From a virus, in IMG/VR virus record IMGVR_UViG_3300021255_000132, positions 1 to 48,723 of that record: a stretch of DNA of 48,723 nucleotides. One strand, written 5' to 3'. Shown in pieces: positions 1-48,723 of this stretch; within the stretch, counting starts at the first letter, position 1; each line of letters starts with the position of its first letter. The notes beneath the pieces were generated by a model. That model did not search any database. It worked only from the letters and a program-made list of their open reading frames with translations, and was not told the DNA's origin. The translations under genes and the position numbers were made by a program.

Positions 1-107
1 TATCATCATTTTATTTATTCTCCTAACCTTCTTTCTTTCACGCCTTAGAAACGTCTCATATTTCTTCCCCAGCAAGCCAATAGCTTTTACTTGCATTCCC
101 CACCTGT
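1..107. repeat. Terminal overlap copy 1 (identical to 48617-48723)
   Basis: Read directly: tatcatcattttatttattctcc...ttgcattccccacctgt occurs at both ends of the window. Confidence 0.95.
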
Positions 108-15190: not shown

Positions 15191-15236
15191 GCATGTGGAG
15201 AAACAGCCTATGTTTATTATATATCGCTCCACATGC
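15191..15236. promoter_or_regulatory. 10-bp inverted repeat gcatgtggag-N26-ctccacatgc upstream of the integrase gene
   Basis: Read directly. It ends 39 nt before the integrase ATG and the region between the arms is AT-rich. Confidence 0.4.
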
Positions 15237-15274
15237 TTTGTCTCACAATCAAACATTTTATGGAGGATTTTATA

Positions 15275-16681
15275 ATGACAAAAACAGTAAAACGTGCTGC
15301 CCTTTATATCCGTGTAAGCACCGACGAGCAGGCGCGATACGGATTATCACTTGGAGAACAGCGCCGCGACCTTGAAGATTACGCGCGTCGCAAAGGATAT
15401 ATTGTTGCCGGCATCTATGCTGACGAAGGCACATCCGCCCGCAAGTCCCTGCATCGCAGGAAAGAATTGCAGCGCCTGCTTGCCGATATCCGTGCCGGCA
15501 AGATTGATGTCGTTGTTGTTAAAGACTTGGAACGCTGGATGCGCTCCGTCCGTGACTTTTATAAAGTACAAGACATTCTCGATGAGCATAATGTCGGCTG
15601 GGAGTGTTCCCAGGACAGGTACAACACCACCACTGCCAATGGGAAGATGCAGCTGAATATGCGTCTGGCCATCGCACAGGACGAATCGGATCGGGACAGT
15701 GAGCGCATCCGTTACGTGTTCGAGGGCAAGAGAAAACGCAAAGAAGTCCTGTCTGGCGCAATTCCCAGGGGAATGTCTATTGTCGATAAGCATATCGTAT
15801 TTAACGAAGAAGCTGATATGGTGCGGGCCATATTCAATCATGTCTATAATGGCGGTTCCGTCCGTTCCTGTATCGCTTTGGCCAAAGAAGAATACGGCGT
15901 TGAATTGACTTATAGAACCATTCGCCGTTCGCTTGCCAATCGTGCATATATCGGGGAGCTCCACGGCGAACCAGGCTACATTGAGTCAATGATTCCCCTG
16001 GATGTGTTCAACAGAGTCCAGATTAAGTTGAAAAAATACTGCTCTTCTTTCCGGAACAAATCCACTGGTAGCCGTGTTTATCTTTTTACCGGATTGATTT
16101 CCTGCCCACATTGCGGCTCCACCCTCAGCGGTTATCGTGGGGATAAAAAAGCGGACGGCACTTATCGCACTTACTGGTATCGTTGTGGTCGTGCCAATGG
16201 CAACGCCGGCGTTGGCTGCAATTATACCCGGTGCTTGTACGAGCGGAAAGTGGAATCATTCCTTCTCGATAACATCCAGTCGCTACTATCCAATCACATG
16301 TATCAAATCGAGCAACGCCGCATTGCAAAGCAAAAATTCCGCTCTGAAATGACCGAAGAAAATATCCAGGCAAAGCTGGCGCGCTTGAAAGATTTGTATG
16401 TTGACGGGCTTATCGATAAACCGACGTACCTGCGCGACTATAATAAGTTTCAGCAGCAACTCCTTGAAATAGCTTCTGATGAGGTCATCCCTCTTACCAC
16501 AATTCCGCCCGAAGCCCAAAGCTTTGTTTCATCAGCTGACTTCCGTGAAGTATATCAATCCCTCACGCAGGAAAACAAGCGTGACTTTTGGGCATCCATT
16601 ATCAAACGGATTACATACGAAGATACCCCCGCAACTCATGGCCGTGGGGGTGTATATGACTTCCATGTTGAGTTTTATTAA
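15275..16681 (+). CDS. Large serine recombinase (phage integrase), 468 aa
   Basis: The resolvase-type catalytic domain is present: AALYIRVSTDEQ...GLSLGEQ. A C-terminal zinc-ribbon region follows (CPHCGSTLSGYRG...YWYRCGR...GC), then a coiled coil. ATG at 15275 lies 7 nt after GGAGGA. Confidence 0.9.
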   Translation: MTKTVKRAALYIRVSTDEQARYGLSLGEQRRDLEDYARRKGYIVAGIYADEGTSARKSLHRRKELQRLLADIRAGKIDVVVVKDLERWMRSVRDFYKVQDILDEHNVGWECSQDRYNTTTANGKMQLNMRLAIAQDESDRDSERIRYVFEGKRKRKEVLSGAIPRGMSIVDKHIVFNEEADMVRAIFNHVYNGGSVRSCIALAKEEYGVELTYRTIRRSLANRAYIGELHGEPGYIESMIPLDVFNRVQIKLKKYCSSFRNKSTGSRVYLFTGLISCPHCGSTLSGYRGDKKADGTYRTYWYRCGRANGNAGVGCNYTRCLYERKVESFLLDNIQSLLSNHMYQIEQRRIAKQKFRSEMTEENIQAKLARLKDLYVDGLIDKPTYLRDYNKFQQQLLEIASDEVIPLTTIPPEAQSFVSSADFREVYQSLTQENKRDFWASIIKRITYEDTPATHGRGGVYDFHVEFY

Positions 16682-20262: not shown

Positions 20263-20571
20263 CTAGAATGTTCCGTGCACTATCCAAATAACACCTTCAC
20301 CAATGACCACACCGCCGACGTCAGCCGCCAGGTCTCCCAAATGGTCATGCGTAGCATGTCCCTTGTTATGGTCATAAATTTCCTTAGCCACAAATAAGCC
20401 GCCTAATATGCTCCAGCGCGTTTCCTTTTTCACTCCACATTCAGCCATAGCCAAGTCAAGGCCCGTCGCAACGCCGATGTGCTTTTGCTTATCCGGCGCT
20501 ATTTCCGCATAGCAAAAAGACGGTATCATCATCGATATCGCCATCAGTGCCGCTATTAACTTTTTGTTCAT
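20263..20571 (-). CDS. Secreted or membrane-anchored small protein with a signal peptide (102 aa)
   Basis: MNKKLIAALMAISMMIPSFCYAEI... Its start lies 83 nt inside the 3' end of the RT ORF. Confidence 0.5.
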   Translation of the reverse strand: MNKKLIAALMAISMMIPSFCYAEIAPDKQKHIGVATGLDLAMAECGVKKETRWSILGGLFVAKEIYDHNKGHATHDHLGDLAADVGGVVIGEGVIWIVHGTF

Positions 20572-21655
20572 CTCCCGTCACCCCCTTTCTTTGCAAGCAA
20601 ATTGAGCTCAGGAGCTTTGTCCTGAGCCTATAACTATCGCAGTGTCGCATTTGCCCATTGTATGACGCATAGGTTTTCATGAAGTCCTCCACATTGGCTT
20701 TACCTCTGGCGAATCTTTTTACTATGCCCTTTAGCCTATGCTTCATCTTTAATGCAGTTTTCTTTCTGAGCAATATGTGGTCCCTCCAGATGCGGAAACC
20801 ACAAAAGTCAACTCCCTGCGTTTCTGTCCGTATTGATGTTTTGTTGTTGAGGAGCAAAGCCCGCTCATTGAGCAGGAAGTCATACATAGCATCACGACAT
20901 TCAGCTAAATATTTTTTATCTGTGCTGACAATCGTAATATCATCCATGTACCGCAGATAATACTTTGCTCCCAGTTCGTGCTTAGCAAACTTGTCTGCAC
21001 CGTCAAGATAAAAGTTTGCCAGCATCTGTGATGACAGGTTGCCGATTGGCATACCAACATCATGCAGTCTTTCACCGCAATAATCGTGGTCTCCAATATT
21101 AATTCCGAAATCGTGCTCACTGTTCACTATTATGCCCAGCAGCCACAATAGTTCTTCGTCTTTTATGGTCTGACTGAGCAAATCCATCATTATTGCATGG
21201 TTCACGCGGTAAAAATACTTTGAGATGTCCATTTTGAGTATATACGCCTTGCCAGGCTGTGCCCTTATATACTCCTGCAGTTTGGCTACTGCACTATGAG
21301 GCCCGCCCTTTATTGGTGCGCACTTCATACGGCAGCCAAAGCTGGTATTTATATAGCGTTTCTCTAACAAGGGATTCAGCTGGCGGTAAACCGCCCATTG
21401 AATAATCCTGTCCCTAAATGGCAGCGCCATTATCAAACGCTTCTTCGGATCGTGTACAAAGAATTCTCGATATCGCCCCACTTTATAAGTATGCCAAATC
21501 AGTTCATTCTGTAATTCAATAAGGTTTTCATCCAGATTGGCCGAAAACTCCATAACTTCCGTTCGATATCTTTTGCCCTTTCTGGCTTCCAGATATGACG
21601 CATAAAGGTTTTCGTAATCATAGATTTTCTCAAAGATGTTTCCTATTCGTTTCAA
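20489..21655 (-). CDS. DGR-type reverse transcriptase (388 aa, apparent TTG start)
   Basis: RT motifs are present, including the DGR hallmark PIGNLSSQMLANFYL and the catalytic YMDD (YLRYMDDITIV). The gene lies 226 nt downstream of the TR. Confidence 0.9.
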   Translation of the reverse strand: MKRIGNIFEKIYDYENLYASYLEARKGKRYRTEVMEFSANLDENLIELQNELIWHTYKVGRYREFFVHDPKKRLIMALPFRDRIIQWAVYRQLNPLLEKRYINTSFGCRMKCAPIKGGPHSAVAKLQEYIRAQPGKAYILKMDISKYFYRVNHAIMMDLLSQTIKDEELLWLLGIIVNSEHDFGINIGDHDYCGERLHDVGMPIGNLSSQMLANFYLDGADKFAKHELGAKYYLRYMDDITIVSTDKKYLAECRDAMYDFLLNERALLLNNKTSIRTETQGVDFCGFRIWRDHILLRKKTALKMKHRLKGIVKRFARGKANVEDFMKTYASYNGQMRHCDSYRLRTKLLSSICLQRKGVTGDEQKVNSGTDGDIDDDTVFLLCGNSAG

Positions 21656-21881
21656 TGTATGTTTCTTCCTTACATGTTACATATAAGCCACAATAAATTA
21701 ATCAATCACTGTCACGTTTTTCGCCCGCCTACTCTTTCAAGGAACGCTACTAACCGCGATGCAGTCCTTTTTTGTTTTTGAGACGGTGTATCTTCCCCAC
21801 CGCCTATGGATACATGCTCCTTATTCTTCATGTAACTGGATGCGCTCCCGTAAGATACGCAACTTCTGACAAAATGAAGAT

Positions 21882-21997
21882 TAAGCCACGCGCCCGCCCA
21901 CGTTGTTGTTCGAATTCGAGCGAACATTATTCAGGTTCAAGGCGAAAACGCCCGCGTTGGCACCATTGTTCCAATTGCCGCCGGATAACGGAACGCG
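21882..21997 (-). repeat. DGR template repeat (TR), 116 bp
   Basis: 102 of 116 positions are identical to 22492-22607. It lies in a non-coding stretch between avd and the RT gene and carries 11 AAY triplets in the VR reading frame. Confidence 0.9.
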
Positions 21998-22023
21998 AAT
22001 TTAGCATGTCCCCAAAGTAACCA

Positions 22024-22398
22024 TTATTTTCTGTTGTTTGTCATCATCCTGCCTATTATTCGCCCACATTCATCAGCACATTTTGATGTAATCTCATATC
22101 GCTTAAAGGCCATATACTTGAATTCAACTCCCAGCCGTAAATACTGCCGCAACGTGTCCAGTTTAATATCTGCTTCTTCTAGTGAAGTTTTCTTGATATG
22201 CTTGTCCTTTATCCTGATTACCAGCTCCATAAAATCATTAAAGATTTTCTTAGTATCTGCAGCAAGTCCGTATTTCTCAGATTTTGGATACTGCCTCAAG
22301 CTAATATATAGTTCTTTCATCAGGTCATGAGTTCTTTCCAACAGGTAAAATGGCACCTTACTTGCTGTTAAATGATTCAGGACGGTCTCTTGTTCCAT
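22024..22398 (-). CDS. avd: Accessory variability determinant (Avd)-like four-helix-bundle protein (124 aa)
   Basis: Its size, basic helical sequence (LYISLRQYPKSEKYGLAADTKK...) and position between VR and TR all fit Avd. Confidence 0.75.
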   Translation of the reverse strand: MEQETVLNHLTASKVPFYLLERTHDLMKELYISLRQYPKSEKYGLAADTKKIFNDFMELVIRIKDKHIKKTSLEEADIKLDTLRQYLRLGVEFKYMAFKRYEITSKCADECGRIIGRMMTNNRK

Positions 22399-22433: not shown

Positions 22434-22455
22434 GGGGCTTGCTCCCGCAAGCCCC
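22434..22455 (-). promoter_or_regulatory. GC-rich hairpin downstream of VR (DGR homing-associated stem-loop)
   Basis: On the minus strand: GGGGCTTGC-GGGA-GCAAGCCCC, a 9-bp stem with a 4-nt loop, 36 nt after the VR 3' end. Confidence 0.65.
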
Positions 22456-22478: not shown

Positions 22479-23465
22479 TCAGATTTCAGCGTAAGCCACG
22501 CGCCCGCCCACGTCGCGGTACGAATGCGAGCGAACATCAGCCAGGCGCAAGGCGAAAACGCCCGCGCCGGCACCACGGTTCCAATTGCCGCCGGATAACG
22601 GAACGCGCTCACCTTCATGAACTGCCCAGATATGGTCATCCGTGGTGACATCAGAGCACTTCATAAGCGCCAGCTGTTTAATAGCCTGGTGAGGGGTTAC
22701 TCCAGATGCGGCCGTGATGGAAGAGAACGCAGCATCCGTGTTAGCAGTTGAAGCTGCAGTCTGAATGGTAGTGCCACTCAGATAGTTAGCCGTATCGATA
22801 TAACCTGCTGTGCTGTTCTCGCTGTCAGCCGTATCAAAGTTATTCATGGCTACACCATCTTCGCCTACGACATAGATTTTGCCGTTGATGAGCTTCATGC
22901 CCTGGTTCCACTCCCAGATATTACCGCAAAGGTCATAGATACCAGCTGCAGTACCATCGTGAGACCAGGACACCGGGCCAGAGCCGGTCAGTACGCGACC
23001 ATCACCGCCCATCACGCCATGCTCATACGTTGCATCATGAGCCTTACCCGTTGCAGTATTGCCACGCGGCACATAGCCCGACTTCGCACAAAGCAGTGCA
23101 AGGCCAGCCTGTTCAGCGCGGGATAACAGATGCCAGCCCTTCCCCTTTGCGCTGCATGCATTACGCGTATTATCAAAGGTCGTGTAGACTGTCGGGTCTT
23201 CCATCGGCATGGAGCAAGCGCGCCCATTGACGATTTTTGCCTGATATTTACCAATCCAAACTTCCGGCAGCTCCTTGCCATGATAGAGGAACATCGGATG
23301 CACGCCAGTGCCAGCACCGGCATCGCTGGTTACATCCTCAATGTTGAATTTCGGAATGCAGACAAGCACAGACGGATAACCTTTGTCGTCATATCTGACA
23401 GTATTGCGTCCACCGGATGCAGCCTCAACAGCCTGACGGTACGGGTCTTTAATCGTGAAATACAT
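22479..23465 (-). CDS. DGR target: FGE/C-type-lectin-fold receptor-binding (tail fibre tip) protein, 328 aa
   Basis: Formylglycine-generating-enzyme-like signatures are present: GWHLLSRAEQAGLALL and DLCGNIWEWNQG. The C-terminal GGNWN.GA.AGVFAL scaffold is typical of DGR variable proteins. The gene is last in the tail-fibre module. Confidence 0.8.
   Translation of the reverse strand: MYFTIKDPYRQAVEAASGGRNTVRYDDKGYPSVLVCIPKFNIEDVTSDAGAGTGVHPMFLYHGKELPEVWIGKYQAKIVNGRACSMPMEDPTVYTTFDNTRNACSAKGKGWHLLSRAEQAGLALLCAKSGYVPRGNTATGKAHDATYEHGVMGGDGRVLTGSGPVSWSHDGTAAGIYDLCGNIWEWNQGMKLINGKIYVVGEDGVAMNNFDTADSENSTAGYIDTANYLSGTTIQTAASTANTDAAFSSITAASGVTPHQAIKQLALMKCSDVTTDDHIWAVHEGERVPLSGGNWNRGAGAGVFALRLADVRSHSYRDVGGRVAYAEI
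22492..22607 (-). repeat. DGR variable repeat (VR), 116 bp, codons 287-325 of the target gene
   Basis: All 14 differences from the TR fall at TR coding-strand adenines. The VR ends 10 nt before the stop codon. Confidence 0.9.
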
Positions 23466-23468
23466 AGT

Positions 23469-23900
23469 TTAGTCCTCCTTAGTCTCTTTGCTATCATCAG
23501 AATCAGTTGCTTCCTCAATCGGGAAGAAACTGCCAAACAACTCAATAACACAGTTCTCTGTGTCAACCGGCACCTTGCGTTGAGCCATCACAGGCTCCAT
23601 CTTGCCTGTTGTCGGGTTTTTCTGCTTCTCGCCGGTGTCGTAAATCTCATACTTGCCAGCAGGAATAGTGACGCGTGCAACACAGTACGGCGGAATTTCA
23701 CCATCATAGTCGATGTAACCATGAAGCGTTCCGTCCGTATCCTGACAAATATGGATGATTGTTTCTACATCGTGCTGCAGCTCGTCCATGTCAAAGCTCA
23801 GCAAGTTCTCACCCTTGCCTACAAACAGCGTCGTTTCCTTGACGCCATACGGCACATAGCCGTACGGCTCCCAGGTCAACGTCTTCTTTTTTTCAATCAT
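23469..23900 (-). CDS. Hypothetical tail-fibre-associated protein (143 aa)
   Basis: ATG at 23900 after GGAGGTG. The start in the track is TTG. Confidence 0.5.
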   Translation of the reverse strand: MIEKKKTLTWEPYGYVPYGVKETTLFVGKGENLLSFDMDELQHDVETIIHICQDTDGTLHGYIDYDGEIPPYCVARVTIPAGKYEIYDTGEKQKNPTTGKMEPVMAQRKVPVDTENCVIELFGSFFPIEEATDSDDSKETKED

Positions 23901-23914
23901 GCTTGCACCTCCAT

Positions 23915-25567
23915 TCAATGAACCTGATTAACCAGCGTCCAGCGGAATTTAACATTATCAGCTTCGCCCGTAAGCGCCACCGTGAAAAAGCCACTCTGGT
24001 GTTCAATTACTTCGATGCCCGGATTAACGCCGTCATGTGAAAGCACCGACAGATGCACATCATAGTCCGGCGCGTCAACAGCAGCATAACCAGGCATGGG
24101 CACGCTTACTGTCGGACGCGTGTTGTAATAGTTCTCTGAGCCCTCCACGCGACGGATATCAGCAAAGCTGACAGCATTCAGATTAGCTGCCGTATCTCCT
24201 GCAGGCACCGTGATGCGATAAAGCCCCAGCTTTCCTACAGGCACTGCATCAGCAATACGCACCGTATAACCATTAGATGCATTGCCATCGACATATGCAT
24301 AGTAGTTGACAGCCGTGGTGCCCGTGTTGGTTGGAACAGCTGCCACGCTGTTTTCCGTATCTGCAATGCTGTATATATGGCCATCAACATAAACAAGTGA
24401 ATAATTAGACGCTAAATAGGTGCCTGTCTTAGTCACTTTGATGTTTCTGGTGCCGGATACTGCATTGACCACACAGCCACTGCGTACATACTTGTTATAC
24501 AGTGTAGCTTCCCCCTGTTGTACGCGCTGATTCTGCCATTTGTCAAGTTCCGTATTCGCGGCATTGACCTGCTGAATGAGGTACTTGAGGACAGATTTCT
24601 TGGTTTCTGCTTCGCCGTCATACGGCAAAGCCCTCGTGTAAAGCGCCTTGACATCAGATGCTGCGATTACATTGCTGTAAAGACCATCAGGCCGCCCGCT
24701 TCCTGCCGGATACGCGCCTGCACCGCTGGTGTTATCATCAGGGTTATAAGCTGTAGCATTGCGTCTATGCACCTGAAATAACGGGATGGCATAAACATAT
24801 CCGTCAACGCATTTCAGTGCGCTGCAAGCCGACGTGCTGCCATCTCCGGCACGATAAAGCCCCGTCTCTCCGCTGAGTGCAGTGAACGTATAAGCCGAAT
24901 CGCTGTTAGCACCGCCACGGGCCTTGACGCGGTTGCCATTGGTCACGCCTGCCGGATAGCCCACAAAATCCACATCAGACACGGTGCGAATGTTCCAACG
25001 CAACTGCACGCGACGAGTGGTTTCTGCCCCAGCGACGCTGTCCAGCAAGTCATTTCCTAACGTGCCAGACTGCACGCCGCCGTATTTGTAGACATTTTCA
25101 TCATCATCTTCTTGCGAGCCAGTAGGAGCAACCTCTTCAAACCAAATCTCAGCAAATGCAAGGTCTTCACGACTGCCAGAGTTCGGCGCTGCAGGAAAAA
25201 TGATGTCGCTTGCCTGGTCGCTACGATTTGCACCGTAAAGATTTAGCAACCAGCCATGCGCATGCACCGTTGCGTCACTGATGCGCAAGCAATTTGCCGG
25301 GTTCGTGACGCCATATGTAGGCGCCAGCGAAAGCACCCCCGGAGACAGCAGCTTTCTGAGCATCTGGGCACGCAGATAGTTCTGATTCTGCTGGGCAAGG
25401 TTATGCTCACTATCGAGAGGCGGTTTTGCCTGCTGATAGATAAGCATCGAAAAATTTCTGTTTTCCGGGCTAAGCTTACGAGAAACGCCCGTGGACACAG
25501 TAGGGCCTCCTTCGTAAAGTTCCCTGGTGGTGGTATCGCCTACCACCTGCACAAGATTTTCACTCAT
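23915..25567 (-). CDS. Tail fibre / distal baseplate structural protein (550 aa)
   Basis: It follows the gpJ and gpI homologues and is large and Gly/Asn/Thr-rich. The call is positional. Confidence 0.5.
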   Translation of the reverse strand: MSENLVQVVGDTTTRELYEGGPTVSTGVSRKLSPENRNFSMLIYQQAKPPLDSEHNLAQQNQNYLRAQMLRKLLSPGVLSLAPTYGVTNPANCLRISDATVHAHGWLLNLYGANRSDQASDIIFPAAPNSGSREDLAFAEIWFEEVAPTGSQEDDDENVYKYGGVQSGTLGNDLLDSVAGAETTRRVQLRWNIRTVSDVDFVGYPAGVTNGNRVKARGGANSDSAYTFTALSGETGLYRAGDGSTSACSALKCVDGYVYAIPLFQVHRRNATAYNPDDNTSGAGAYPAGSGRPDGLYSNVIAASDVKALYTRALPYDGEAETKKSVLKYLIQQVNAANTELDKWQNQRVQQGEATLYNKYVRSGCVVNAVSGTRNIKVTKTGTYLASNYSLVYVDGHIYSIADTENSVAAVPTNTGTTAVNYYAYVDGNASNGYTVRIADAVPVGKLGLYRITVPAGDTAANLNAVSFADIRRVEGSENYYNTRPTVSVPMPGYAAVDAPDYDVHLSVLSHDGVNPGIEVIEHQSGFFTVALTGEADNVKFRWTLVNQVH

Positions 25568-48511: not shown

Positions 48512-48712
48512 TTATATAGATACTTCATTAATCATTTTCAGCGCTTCATCAGCATTACATCCAAATAATTTCATTGCGAGCCGATCAGCCTCCTCCTCAG
48601 TCAATGGTCTAGGCACTATCATCATTTTATTTATTCTCCTAACCTTCTTTCTTTCACGCCTTAGAAACGTCTCATATTTCTTCCCCAGCAAGCCAATAGC
48701 TTTTACTTGCAT
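48512..48712 (-). CDS. Hypothetical small protein (66 aa); the ORF stays open across the circular junction
   Basis: The frame stays open upstream into the sequence equivalent to positions 97-190. An alternative ATG lies at the equivalent of position 114, after GGAGGA. Confidence 0.45.
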   Translation of the reverse strand: MQVKAIGLLGKKYETFLRRERKKVRRINKMMIVPRPLTEEEADRLAMKLFGCNADEALKMINEVSI

Positions 48713-48723
48713 TCCCCACCTGT
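48617..48723. repeat. Terminal overlap copy 2 (identical to 1-107)
   Basis: Read directly. This is most simply the end overlap of a circular assembly. Confidence 0.95.

What the first reader, a model, noticed from the sequence alone, without database searches (positions are those of the whole stretch)
22492..22607. Codon-level reading of the VR: nine surface residues already rewritten from Asn-templated AAY codons
Translating the TR in the VR frame gives RVPLSGGNWNNGANAGVFALNLNNVRSNSNNNVGGRVAY, with 11 AAY (Asn) codons.

In the VR, nine of these codons now encode R297, G300, R307, A309, D310, H314, Y316, R317 and D318. N294 and N296 are unchanged. Only first and second codon positions (the As) vary, so no stop codon can arise.

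NNY at 11 codons gives 15 amino acids per site, about 15^11 combinations in theory.

The invariant scaffold GGNW..G..AGVFAL, together with the upstream GWHLL and GNIWEW motifs, indicates an FGE/C-type-lectin fold. This is the fold used by known DGR receptor-binding proteins.
Basis: seen in the sequence. Interest (0 to 1): 0.7.

Follow-up and report, generated by a model that had tools for sequence, protein, structure and literature searches.

The report
Phage DGR rewriting a tail-receptor protein
This is a textbook diversity-generating retroelement in a temperate tailed phage: a reverse transcriptase copies a template repeat with errors at adenines into the end of a lectin-fold tail protein. 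That rewrites 11 asparagine-templated positions; the reading is correct, but the system is of a well-known kind.

Summary
Window 22492-22607 (minus strand) is a 116-nt variable repeat (VR) at the 3' end of a 328-aa gene. Its template repeat (TR) lies 610 nt downstream at 21882-21997. All 14 differences fall on TR adenines (24 A in 116 nt; chance about 5e-12).

The cassette is complete: target, Avd, TR, RT, a GC-rich VR end, a GRNA-loop hairpin after the VR, and covarying RNA elements around the TR.

- **Fold:** the target folds with high confidence (pLDDT 94) and matches the Thermus aquaticus DGR variable protein TaqVP (5VF4; TM 0.89, 34% identity). TaqVP has an FGE-type C-type-lectin fold.
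- **Exposure:** all nine solvent-exposed variable residues of TaqVP align one-to-one with adenine-bearing codons here.
- **Population evidence:** fourteen near-identical phage relatives carry 14 different VR alleles, while the seven whose DNA was read have a TR identical or 2 nt different. Only NNY-encodable residues appear at the 11 sites.

The direct test of surface exposure could not be run, because no model coordinates are available. Verdict: a new member of a known kind. One side lead remains: a small protein of unknown fold always sits just upstream of this target family.

The parts
22479..23465 (-). Target gene: 328-aa variable protein with an FGE-type C-type-lectin fold, TaqVP-like
   Evidence: ORF. 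phrog_2889 at 3.7e-105. AF2 pLDDT 94.2. Foldseek 5VF4 at E 3e-36, TM 0.89. Profile match to 5VF4 at 1.6e-111.
22492..22607 (-). Variable repeat (VR), codons 287-325. The 11 diversified codons are 294, 296, 297, 300, 307, 309, 310, 314, 316, 317 and 318.
   Evidence: Alleles in relatives.
22495..22511 (-). GC-rich, adenine-free 3' end of the VR (GTGGGCGGGCGCGTGGC), encoding V319-A324. It is IMH-like and marks the 3' boundary of mutagenesis.
   Evidence: Read from the sequence. Invariant in all alleles. Compared with the IMH description in PMC5758913.
22434..22455 (-). Hairpin/cruciform element after the VR: GGGGCTTGC-GGGA-GCAAGCCCC. It has a 9-bp GC stem and a 4-nt GRNA loop, and starts 36 nt after the VR end.
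   Evidence: -19.9 kcal/mol. There is no T-tail, so it is not a terminator. 31 of 47 family loci have an equivalent perfect stem of 6 bp or more with different stem sequences; the loop is GATA in 22. Matches the consensus in PMC3240598.
22024..22398 (-). avd, the accessory variability determinant (124 aa)
   Evidence: Pfam bAvd 1.8e-19. NCBIfam NF033474 equivalog at 85.8 bits, above the cutoff of 80. phrog_3206 'Avd protein of DGR'.
22003..22013 (-). Upstream strand (GGGGACATGCT) of a predicted duplex with the spacer RNA, like the 'cPRT Stop' duplex of the Bordetella phage DGR RNA
   Evidence: RNAduplex pairing in the window, with covarying pairs in relatives. Cognate versus non-cognate energies are -28.9 versus -22.5 kcal/mol, p = 9e-12. 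Compared with bioRxiv 10.1101/2023.10.23.563531.
21882..21997 (-). Template repeat (TR): 24 adenines, 22 of them in 11 AAY codons
   Evidence: Identical in 5 of 7 related contigs and 2 nt different in the other 2.
21841..21861 (-). Stem-loop in the spacer RNA about 20 nt after the TR (TGCGTATC-TTACGG-GAGCGCA). Its position and form match the Avd-binding stem-loop.
   Evidence: Alignment A3 of 82 loci. RNAalifold finds compensatory changes in every pair of this helix.
21808..21818 (-). Spacer strand (AGCATGTATCC) of the predicted duplex with 22003-22013
21783..21803 (-). Second spacer stem-loop (GCGGTG-GGGAAGATA-CACCGT), followed by an adenosine-rich run
   Evidence: This pattern (stem-loop then adenosines next to the duplex) is described in 10.1101/2023.10.23.563531.
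20489..21655 (-). DGR-type reverse transcriptase (388 aa), with IGNLSSQ and YMDD motifs
   Evidence: RVT_1 at 5.6e-22. phrog_1423 at 2.7e-125. Best PDB match is the 328-aa RT of entries 8ub7-8ube at E 8e-42; the next best is a group II intron RT at 1.6e-16.
23469..23900 (-). Small all-beta protein (143 aa from the ATG with a GGAGG ribosome-binding site) directly upstream of the target. Conserved partner of unknown function.
   Evidence: Homologous ORF in 143 of 150 related loci. phrog_8734, unknown function. AF2 pLDDT 78.8. No PDB fold match.
23915..25567 (-). 550-aa tail-fibre-position protein. Its C-terminal ~210 aa co-occur with the target family.
   Evidence: tblastn homologue in 103 of 161 loci, always on the same strand and 340-510 nt before the target. 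It follows the P2 gpJ-like and gpI-like genes.

Best explanation
The region is the variable repeat of an intact diversity-generating retroelement (DGR) carried by a temperate contractile-tailed phage. The cassette order is target gene, avd, TR, RT.

Proposed mechanism:
1. An RNA spanning the end of avd, the TR and the spacer is bound by the RT-Avd complex.
2. That RNA is reverse-transcribed with misincorporation opposite template adenines.
3. The cDNA replaces the VR at the 3' end of the target gene. Homing is directed by the GC-rich VR end and the GRNA-loop hairpin downstream.

Because 22 of the 24 TR adenines sit in the first two positions of 11 AAY codons, each round redraws up to 11 residues from 15 amino acids without ever making a stop codon.

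The target is a single-domain, FGE-type C-type-lectin protein homologous over its whole length to TaqVP. It sits at the end of the tail-fibre module. It therefore most likely acts as the phage's receptor-binding protein, and diversification lets the phage follow changes in host surface receptors.

Shown here: the repeat anatomy, the adenine specificity, the protein families, the fold, the conserved RNA and DNA elements, and population-level diversification. Inferred: the enzymology (by homology to the Bordetella phage system), the surface exposure of the variable residues, and the receptor-binding role.
For: - **Adenine specificity:** 14 of 14 mismatches fall at TR adenines, P about 5e-12.
- **Avd:** passes the NCBIfam equivalog cutoff.
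- **RT:** its closest solved relative is the 328-aa RT of 8ub7, by about 25 orders of magnitude over group II intron RTs. It has IGxxxSQ and YMDD motifs.
- **Hairpin:** 9-bp GC stem and GGGA loop with no T-tail, fitting the 7-10 bp / GRNA rule of PMC3240598.
- **Spacer RNA:** helices with compensatory changes in all 13 predicted pairs, plus a covarying duplex between the sequence upstream of the TR and the spacer, as described for DGR RNAs in 10.1101/2023.10.23.563531.
- **Fold:** 5VF4 at TM 0.89.
- **Site mapping:** the nine exposed TaqVP variable sites map to adenine-bearing codons here.
- **Relatives, DNA level:** 7 distinct alleles give 97 TR-VR mismatches, 91 of them at A. The TR is identical in five of the seven related contigs and 2 nt different in two, while the rest of the gene differs by 3-6%.
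- **Relatives, protein level:** 14 of 14 VR alleles are distinct. Mean entropy is 2.68 bits at the 11 sites against 0.06 elsewhere. None of 154 residues lies outside the NNY set.
- **Family-wide pattern:** the same codon positions carry AAY in the TR in 46 more distant viral loci. 95 of 161 related loci have an A-biased TR/VR pair.
- **Context:** the gene follows P2 gpJ-like and gpI-like genes and fibre genes, and precedes the lysis genes. Homologues in cultured phages are annotated as 'antireceptor' or Mtd-like.
Against: - No read-level data, so ongoing diversification within this particular phage population is not shown.
- The 14 alleles come from different samples and from phages 3-6% divergent.
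- Surface exposure and contiguity of the 11 residues were not computed, because no coordinates are available.
- The target lacks the trimerising N-terminal domains of Mtd, and how it is attached to the virion is unknown.
- Two relatives show 3 non-adenine changes each in the VR, so not all VR variation is DGR-made.
- The identity of PDB 8ub7 as the Bordetella phage RT is inferred from its length and from the nine-entry set, not stated in the search output.
Confidence: 0.93

Rival explanations
1. The cassette is a real DGR but is now inactive in this genome. On this view the VR is a frozen allele, and the differences among relatives are old.
For: No within-sample heterogeneity could be examined. 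The relatives compared differ by 3-6% outside the VR, so they are not clones.
Against: - All parts are intact: full-length RT with YMDD, Avd above the curated cutoff, the hairpin and the RNA elements.
- The TR is identical across contigs whose flanking gene has diverged.
- All 14 alleles differ.
- N294 and N296, unchanged here, are changed in relatives.
Confidence: 0.08
2. The target is an enzyme of the SUMF1/EgtB/PvdO (formylglycine-generating enzyme) family, as RefSeq names its homologues, and not a receptor-binding protein.
For: There is a weak Pfam FGE-sulfatase match. RefSeq names homologues this way. The profile matches SUMF2 and EgtB.
Against: - The Pfam score of 16.4 is below the cutoff of 23.3.
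- The positions that superimpose on the human FGE catalytic Ser333, Cys336 and Cys341 in TaqVP (D348, N351, near V354; PMC6328139) correspond to N294, R297 and G300 here. These are hypervariable sites, so no catalytic triad is kept.
- The gene sits in the tail-fibre module.
Confidence: 0.04
3. The repeat is an ordinary duplication that diverged by random mutation, not a retroelement product.
For: None beyond the existence of a repeat.
Against: - All 14 differences fall on TR adenines (P about 5e-12).
- The same bias appears in 7 alleles and in 95 related loci.
- An RT gene and an Avd gene are adjacent.
Confidence: 0.005

Closest known systems
TaqVP, variable protein of the Thermus aquaticus prophage DGR (PDB 5VF4; PMC6328139)
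   Same: - Homologous over the whole length (34% identity, TM 0.89, profile E 1.6e-111).
- Single FGE-type C-type-lectin domain with the VR at the C terminus.
- Same cassette order: target, avd, TR, RT.
- All nine TaqVP variable positions coincide with adenine-bearing codons here.
   Different: - 328 aa instead of 381 aa, with shorter inserts.
- 11 AAY sites instead of 7 AAY plus 2 others, so the theoretical repertoire is about 9e12 instead of 3e9.
- Position 317 is variable here, whereas TaqVP has the invariant W371 at that position.
- The host is probably an animal-gut Negativicute, not a thermophile.
Mtd of Bordetella phage BPP-1, the prototype DGR
   Same: - Same mechanism and parts: RT closest to the 8ub7 RT, Avd, adenine mutagenesis of AAY codons, GC-rich VR end, GRNA hairpin, and structured spacer RNA.
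- C-type-lectin variable domain at the C terminus of a tail protein.
   Different: Only the lectin domain aligns (Foldseek TM 0.36, 12% identity). There are no beta-prism or beta-sandwich trimerisation domains, and TaqVP-type proteins are monomers in vitro. The host phage is a P2-like contractile-tailed phage; that BPP-1 is short-tailed is from my own knowledge.
ORF35 of Vibrio phage VHML, and 'antireceptor' gp42 of Pseudoalteromonas phages ACA1/ACA2, Faecalibacterium phage Lagaffe and Bacillus phage BalMu-1
   Same: Full-length homologues (33-39% identity over 93-99% of the query). In VHML and ACA2, the two inspected, the gene follows the gpJ-like and gpI-like baseplate genes and a short tail-fibre gene and is followed by an RT gene, with avd annotated in ACA2.
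   Different: In VHML and ACA2 the target is about 410 aa and follows directly after a short gpH-like fibre subunit. Here a 550-aa protein and a 143-aa protein come before it.
TvpA of Treponema denticola (PDB 2Y3C); target category 'b' (FGE-sulfatase only), VR class CLec1 and architecture B of Wu et al. 2018 (PMC5758913)
   Same: FGE-type lectin fold, C-terminal VR and an avd-TR-RT core.
   Different: TvpA is a cellular protein, not a phage protein. That DGR has several remote targets, whereas this window has a single VR.

Membership tests
Diversity-generating retroelement (DGR) | TR/VR pair whose differences fall on TR adenines | tested here: met
   14 of 14 mismatches fall at TR adenines, P about 5e-12. 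Over 7 alleles, 91 of 97 do.
Diversity-generating retroelement (DGR) | Reverse transcriptase of the DGR clade (IGxxxSQ motif, YxDD) | tested here: met
   Best solved relative is the 328-aa RT of 8ub7-8ube at E 8e-42, against 1.6e-16 for group II intron RTs. IGNLSSQ aligns to IGSLTSQ, and YMDD is present. That the SQ motif is diagnostic is from my own knowledge of the DGR literature.
Diversity-generating retroelement (DGR) | Avd accessory protein next to the TR | tested here: met
   NCBIfam NF033474 (equivalog) at 85.8 bits, cutoff 80. Pfam bAvd at 1.8e-19.
Diversity-generating retroelement (DGR) | GC-rich IMH at the VR 3' end, and a GC-stem hairpin with a 4-nt GRNA loop downstream of the VR but not of the TR | tested here: met
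   The adenine-free GC-rich 17-mer is at 22495-22511. The hairpin at 22434-22455 has a 9-bp stem and a GGGA loop. No such hairpin follows the TR in this window. The rule is taken from PMC3240598.
Diversity-generating retroelement (DGR) | Structured RNA around the TR: a stem-loop just after the TR, and a duplex between sequences upstream and downstream of the TR | tested here: met
   Compensatory changes occur in all 13 predicted pairs. The cognate upstream-spacer duplex is favoured, p = 9e-12. These are predictions only; protein binding was not tested.
Diversity-generating retroelement (DGR) | Ongoing mutagenic retrohoming | not testable with these tools
   Only population-level evidence is available: 14 of 14 VR alleles are distinct and the TR is conserved in the seven relatives read. 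No reads and no experiment.
C-type-lectin-fold DGR variable proteins, FGE subtype (TaqVP / TvpA / Mtd lectin domain) | FGE-type C-type-lectin fold | tested here: met
   AF2 pLDDT 94.2. Foldseek gives 5VF4 at TM 0.89. Mtd, TvpA and PvdO match at E about 5e-4 with probability 0.99 or higher.
C-type-lectin-fold DGR variable proteins, FGE subtype (TaqVP / TvpA / Mtd lectin domain) | Variable residues solvent-exposed and forming one binding face | not testable with these tools
   Model coordinates are not returned. Indirect support: an ungapped alignment places all nine exposed TaqVP variable residues on adenine-bearing codons here.
Mtd family (BPP-1 major tropism determinant) | [quoted passage not shown] | tested here: not met
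   The match to 1YU0 has TM 0.36 and 12% identity. The whole protein aligns instead to monomeric, single-domain TaqVP.
Formylglycine-generating enzyme / SUMF1-EgtB-PvdO enzymes | Pfam FGE-sulfatase above threshold, and conserved catalytic residues | tested here: not met
   PF03781 scores 16.4 bits against a cutoff of 23.3. The positions equivalent to the FGE catalytic Ser and Cys residues are the hypervariable sites 294, 297 and about 300.

The most novel reading that the evidence does not exclude
Within this TaqVP-like subfamily, the variable protein may not act alone. It may be the last unit of a conserved three-gene module: a fibre protein with a conserved ~210-aa C-terminal domain, a small (~117-143 aa) all-beta protein with no known fold relative, and the variable protein.

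The small protein would be a previously unrecognised DGR-linked adaptor or chaperone that mounts the monomeric lectin-fold protein on the tail fibre. That would answer how Mtd-unlike, non-trimeric variable proteins are displayed on virions.

The evidence is synteny only: 143 of 150 and 103 of 161 loci across many phyla. The protein is not among the accessory genes listed by Wu et al. 2018. Shared descent of one tail module could explain the synteny equally well.
Probability: 0.3. Interest if true: 0.45.

Novelty: new member of a known kind. Interest (0 to 1): 0.22.

Why it matters
This phage lineage is abundant: the 90%-identity cluster has 91 sequences from many metagenomes, and its host is probably an animal-gut Negativicute. 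The finding gives that lineage an exact map of which 11 receptor-binding residues it can redraw. It also gives natural evidence that it does so.

It adds a well-populated set of natural alleles to a scaffold (TaqVP-type lectin fold) that has been proposed for molecular display.

It also shows that RefSeq's name for this family ('SUMF1/EgtB/PvdO family nonheme iron enzyme') is misleading for phage genes. It does not change what is known about how DGRs work.

Tried and rejected
- **Near-identity DNA search of the cassette against GenBank phages:** no match. The phage itself is not a described isolate.
- **Rfam and tRNA scans of the window:** nothing.
- **Search for a second VR in the window:** adenines treated as wildcards, up to 10 other mismatches, both strands. 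None found.
- **Hairpin after the VR as an intrinsic terminator:** rejected, because there is no T-run.
- **Direct exposure mapping of the variable residues:** not possible, because structure prediction returns no coordinates and /data holds no model file.
- **Small upstream protein:** the word-indexed homology search found only 3 relatives. The AF2 model from that shallow alignment is moderate (pLDDT 78.8). Foldseek against the PDB gave no match better than E 0.25, and Pfam and NCBIfam gave nothing.
- **Avd against PDB sequences by phmmer:** no hit at E 0.01 or lower. It was identified by profile libraries instead.
- **Apparent local hairpin in the spacer (AAGG..TCC):** I first read it as a local hairpin. 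It is better explained as one strand of the duplex with the sequence upstream of the TR.
Full report

Yes. A single 116-nt direct repeat links 21882-21997 and 22492-22607, at 88% identity and 610 nt spacing. Both copies are read on the minus strand.

The copy at 22492-22607 starts exactly at codon 287 of a 328-aa ORF (23465..22479) and runs to the second base of codon 325, four codons before the stop.

The 14 mismatches are all A in the downstream copy and C, G or T in the gene copy. With 24 A among 116 template bases, the chance that 14 mismatch positions all fall on A is 4.8e-12.

The template read in the gene's frame has 11 AAY codons. Nine are changed, giving R297, G300, R307, A309, D310, H314, Y316, R317 and D318.

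There are two small corrections:
- The template's codon 325 is TAA, not Tyr, because homology ends after its second base.
- The template holds two more adenines, in TTA (Leu290) and in codon 325.

No other copy of the repeat exists in the window.

**2. What surrounds it**

On the minus strand the order is: target gene, then a hairpin, then avd, then the TR, then a structured spacer, then the RT.

- **Avd (22398..22024).** It matches Pfam bAvd at 1.8e-19. It passes NCBI's equivalog model for DGR Avd at 85.8 bits against a cutoff of 80.
- **RT (21655..20489).** It has RVT_1. Its closest solved relative is a 328-aa reverse transcriptase deposited as nine entries, 8ub7-8ube, at E 8e-42 over the full length. 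Group II intron RTs follow at 1.6e-16. I take 8ub7 to be the Bordetella phage bRT of the cryo-EM study 10.1101/2023.10.23.563531. This rests on its length and on the nine complexes described there, so it is an inference. The alignment shows IGNLSSQ opposite IGSLTSQ, and YMDD.
- **VR 3' end.** It is an adenine-free GC-rich stretch, GTGGGCGGGCGCGTGGC (22511..22495).
- **Hairpin after the VR.** It starts 36 nt beyond the VR end: GGGGCTTGC-GGGA-GCAAGCCCC at 22455..22434, -19.9 kcal/mol, with no T-tail. This fits the published rule for phage DGR targets: a 7-10 bp GC-rich stem and a 4-nt loop 5'-GRNA, required for efficient homing (PMC3240598). Among 47 family loci, 31 have a perfect stem of 6 bp or more at the same place. 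The stem sequences differ, and the loop is GATA in 22.

**3. The RNA side**

I aligned the 130 nt around the TR end from 82 loci.
- RNAalifold finds two helices in which all 13 pairs show compensatory double changes.
- The first helix is a stem-loop about 20 nt after the TR (window 21861..21841).
- The second helix is followed by an adenosine run (window 21803..21783).
- The 11 nt just upstream of the TR (GGGGACATGCT, 22013..22003) pair with spacer AGCATGTATCC (21818..21808).
- The same duplex, with different central sequences, appears in relatives.
- Cognate upstream/spacer pairs are more stable than non-cognate ones: -28.9 versus -22.5 kcal/mol, Mann-Whitney p = 9e-12.

These three features match what the cryo-EM preprint calls the Avd-binding stem-loop and the 'cPRT Stop' (a duplex, then a stem-loop, then adenosines). 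That study reports predicted Avd-binding stem-loops and cPRT Stop duplexes in 207 of 278 DGRs with Avd, and the adjacent stem-loop in 47 of them. So the cis elements needed for self-primed, adenine-mutagenic cDNA synthesis appear to be present. Their function here is inferred.

**4. The target protein**

- **Sequence libraries.** Pfam gives only a sub-threshold FGE-sulfatase match: 16.4 bits against a cutoff of 23.3. PHROGs gives phrog_2889 at 3.7e-105.
- **Structure.** AlphaFold2 on that alignment gives pLDDT 94.2 and pTM 0.93.
- **Foldseek against the PDB**:
  - TaqVP (5VF4): E 3e-36, TM 0.89, 34% identity.
  - Five Mtd variants, TvpA and PvdO: E 5e-4 to 2e-3.
  - EgtB: further down.
- **Profile search of PDB sequences**: 5VF4 at 1.6e-111, EgtB and SUMF2 at about 1e-5.
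- **Foldseek against viral models**: many 'tail collar fibre' proteins in which this domain is the C-terminal part.

**5. Are the variable residues a surface patch?**

I could not compute this, because no coordinates are returned.

The indirect test is strong, though. The alignment to TaqVP across the VR is ungapped, with TaqVP numbering equal to ours plus 54. The TaqVP paper lists its nine variable residues as I344, D348, N351, V354, Y361, N364, S368, R370 and G372. It states that all are solvent-exposed and form one potential binding site. These map to 290, 294, 297, 300, 307, 310, 314, 316 and 318 here, and every one is an adenine-bearing codon in our TR.

Our three extra AAY sites (296, 309, 317) lie next to those in the sequence. 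Position 317 aligns with TaqVP W371, described as lying within the binding site.

The residues that superimpose on the human FGE catalytic Ser333 and Cys336, and near Cys341, are TaqVP D348, N351 and V354. These correspond to our hypervariable 294, 297 and 300, so an FGE-type enzyme function is excluded.

**6. VR alleles in relatives**

The protein belongs to a 90%-identity cluster of 91 sequences.

At the protein level:
- Fourteen full-length members carry 14 different VR alleles.
- The 11 AAY sites have on average 7.5 different residues and 2.68 bits of entropy.
- The other 317 columns have 1.11 residues and 0.06 bits.
- All 154 residues seen at the 11 sites belong to the 15 NNY-encodable amino acids: no K, E, Q, M or W.
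- N294 and N296, unchanged in the window, vary in relatives.

At the DNA level, using seven contigs from other samples:
- The TR is identical in five and differs by 2 nt in two.
- The rest of the target gene is 94-97% identical.
- Over seven distinct alleles, 91 of 97 TR-VR mismatches are at TR adenines.
- Two alleles carry three non-adenine changes each.

Further out:
- 95 of 161 related loci from viral contigs and bacterial genomes have an A-biased TR/VR pair.
- In 46 viral loci (37-95% identity) the same codon positions carry AAY in the TR. Examples are 307 in 47/47, 309, 310 and 314 in 46/47, 297 in 45/46, and 294 in 42/46.

The pattern of diversified sites is therefore an old, conserved property of the family.

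**7. Context and likely role**

- **Genome.** The window is a circularly closed assembly, since its first 107 nt repeat at the end. It is a temperate contractile-tailed phage, with terminase, portal, protease, major head protein, sheath, tape measure, a P2 gpJ-like and gpI-like baseplate, a serine integrase and an amidase endolysin.
- **Position of the target.** It is the last gene of the tail-fibre block.
- **Cultured-phage homologues.** Full-length homologues occur in phages known or annotated to have DGRs: Vibrio phage VHML ORF35, Faecalibacterium phage Lagaffe ('Mtd-like') and Pseudoalteromonas phages ACA1/2 ('antireceptor'). In VHML and ACA2, the two records inspected, the gene directly follows a gpH-like fibre subunit.
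- **Host.** The closest genome-borne relatives are in Megasphaera and Selenomonas, at 54-55% identity. The small upstream protein has a 58%-identical relative in a Selenomonadaceae MAG. The host is therefore probably a Negativicute. This is a weak inference.

The receptor-binding role is inferred from fold, position and homology, not shown.

**8. Comparison and novelty**

In the terms of Wu et al. 2018 (PMC5758913), this is a CLec1-class VR on a category 'b' target (FGE-sulfatase domain only). It has the avd-TR-RT core of architecture B, the most common one.

It works like the Bordetella phage Mtd system. It is not an Mtd family member, because it has no trimerisation domains and TM is only 0.36. 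It is a member of the TaqVP/VHML-ORF35 family. Nothing about the VR reading is unexpected for a specialist, so it is a new member of a known kind.

**9. Side observation**

- In 103 of 161 related loci, the C-terminal ~210 aa of the window's 550-aa fibre-position protein has a homologue that ends 340-510 nt before the target.
- The small ORF filling that gap is homologous in 143 of 150 loci (local jackhmmer, final E of 1e-19 or lower).
- The small protein is all-beta (AF2 pLDDT 78.8) and has no PDB fold match and no family annotation.
- It is not among the DGR accessory genes catalogued in 2018.
- It may be an adaptor or chaperone for the monomeric variable protein, or the synteny may simply reflect shared descent of one tail module. 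VHML and ACA2 lack it.

Noticed in passing
window 23469-23900 (-); related loci L012-L172: A small all-beta protein (143 aa here, median 117 aa in relatives) lies directly upstream of the TaqVP-like target in 143 of 150 related loci from many phyla. It has no Pfam, NCBIfam or PDB-fold relative. It may be an adaptor or chaperone for the variable protein.
   Followed up: partly
window 23915-25567 (-), residues ~340-547: The C-terminal ~210 aa of the 550-aa fibre-position protein have homologues in 103 of 161 loci, always on the same strand and 340-510 nt before the target. The whole protein has no Pfam, PHROG or NCBIfam match.
   Followed up: partly
window 21760-22013 (-): The spacer between the TR and the RT, together with the 11 nt before the TR, form covarying helices: a stem-loop after the TR, an upstream-spacer duplex, and a second stem-loop followed by an A-run. 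These match the RNA elements described for the Bordetella phage DGR. Conserved single-stranded motifs GTCAGAAG and CCAGTACA flank the first stem-loop, and their role was not examined.
   Followed up: partly
window 1-107 and 48617-48723: The first 107 nt are repeated exactly at the end of the window. This indicates a circular, and so probably complete, phage genome of about 48.6 kb with 48.3% GC.
   Followed up: yes
window 15233-16681 (+): A large serine recombinase (phrog_95 integrase, 4.4e-99) lies on the opposite strand to the structural genes, so the phage is temperate.
   Followed up: no
L006 4859-4974 and L010 4859-4974: Two VR alleles each carry three substitutions at non-adenine template positions (T>C, G>A, T>C; and C>T, G>T, C>G). 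These give, for example, W295C, G298S and A299G. They could be RT errors at other bases or ordinary mutations.
   Followed up: no
L001, L004-L006, L008-L010: TR versus rest of the target gene: The 116-nt TR is identical in five of seven relatives, although the target gene upstream of the VR differs by 3-6%. The template is held more constant than its surroundings.
   Followed up: partly
L004 7914-8525; L005 8896-8987: The lysis module is mosaic among near-identical phages: one relative has a GH25 muramidase in place of the Amidase_2 endolysin. Another has an IS66-family transposase next to the endolysin. RT gene calls also vary in length (366-397 aa) among relatives.
   Followed up: no
RefSeq records NC_004456.1, NC_047911.1, NC_030945.1: RefSeq names homologues of this phage variable protein 'SUMF1/EgtB/PvdO family nonheme iron enzyme'. 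The catalytic positions are the hypervariable ones, so the name is misleading for phage DGR targets.
   Followed up: partly
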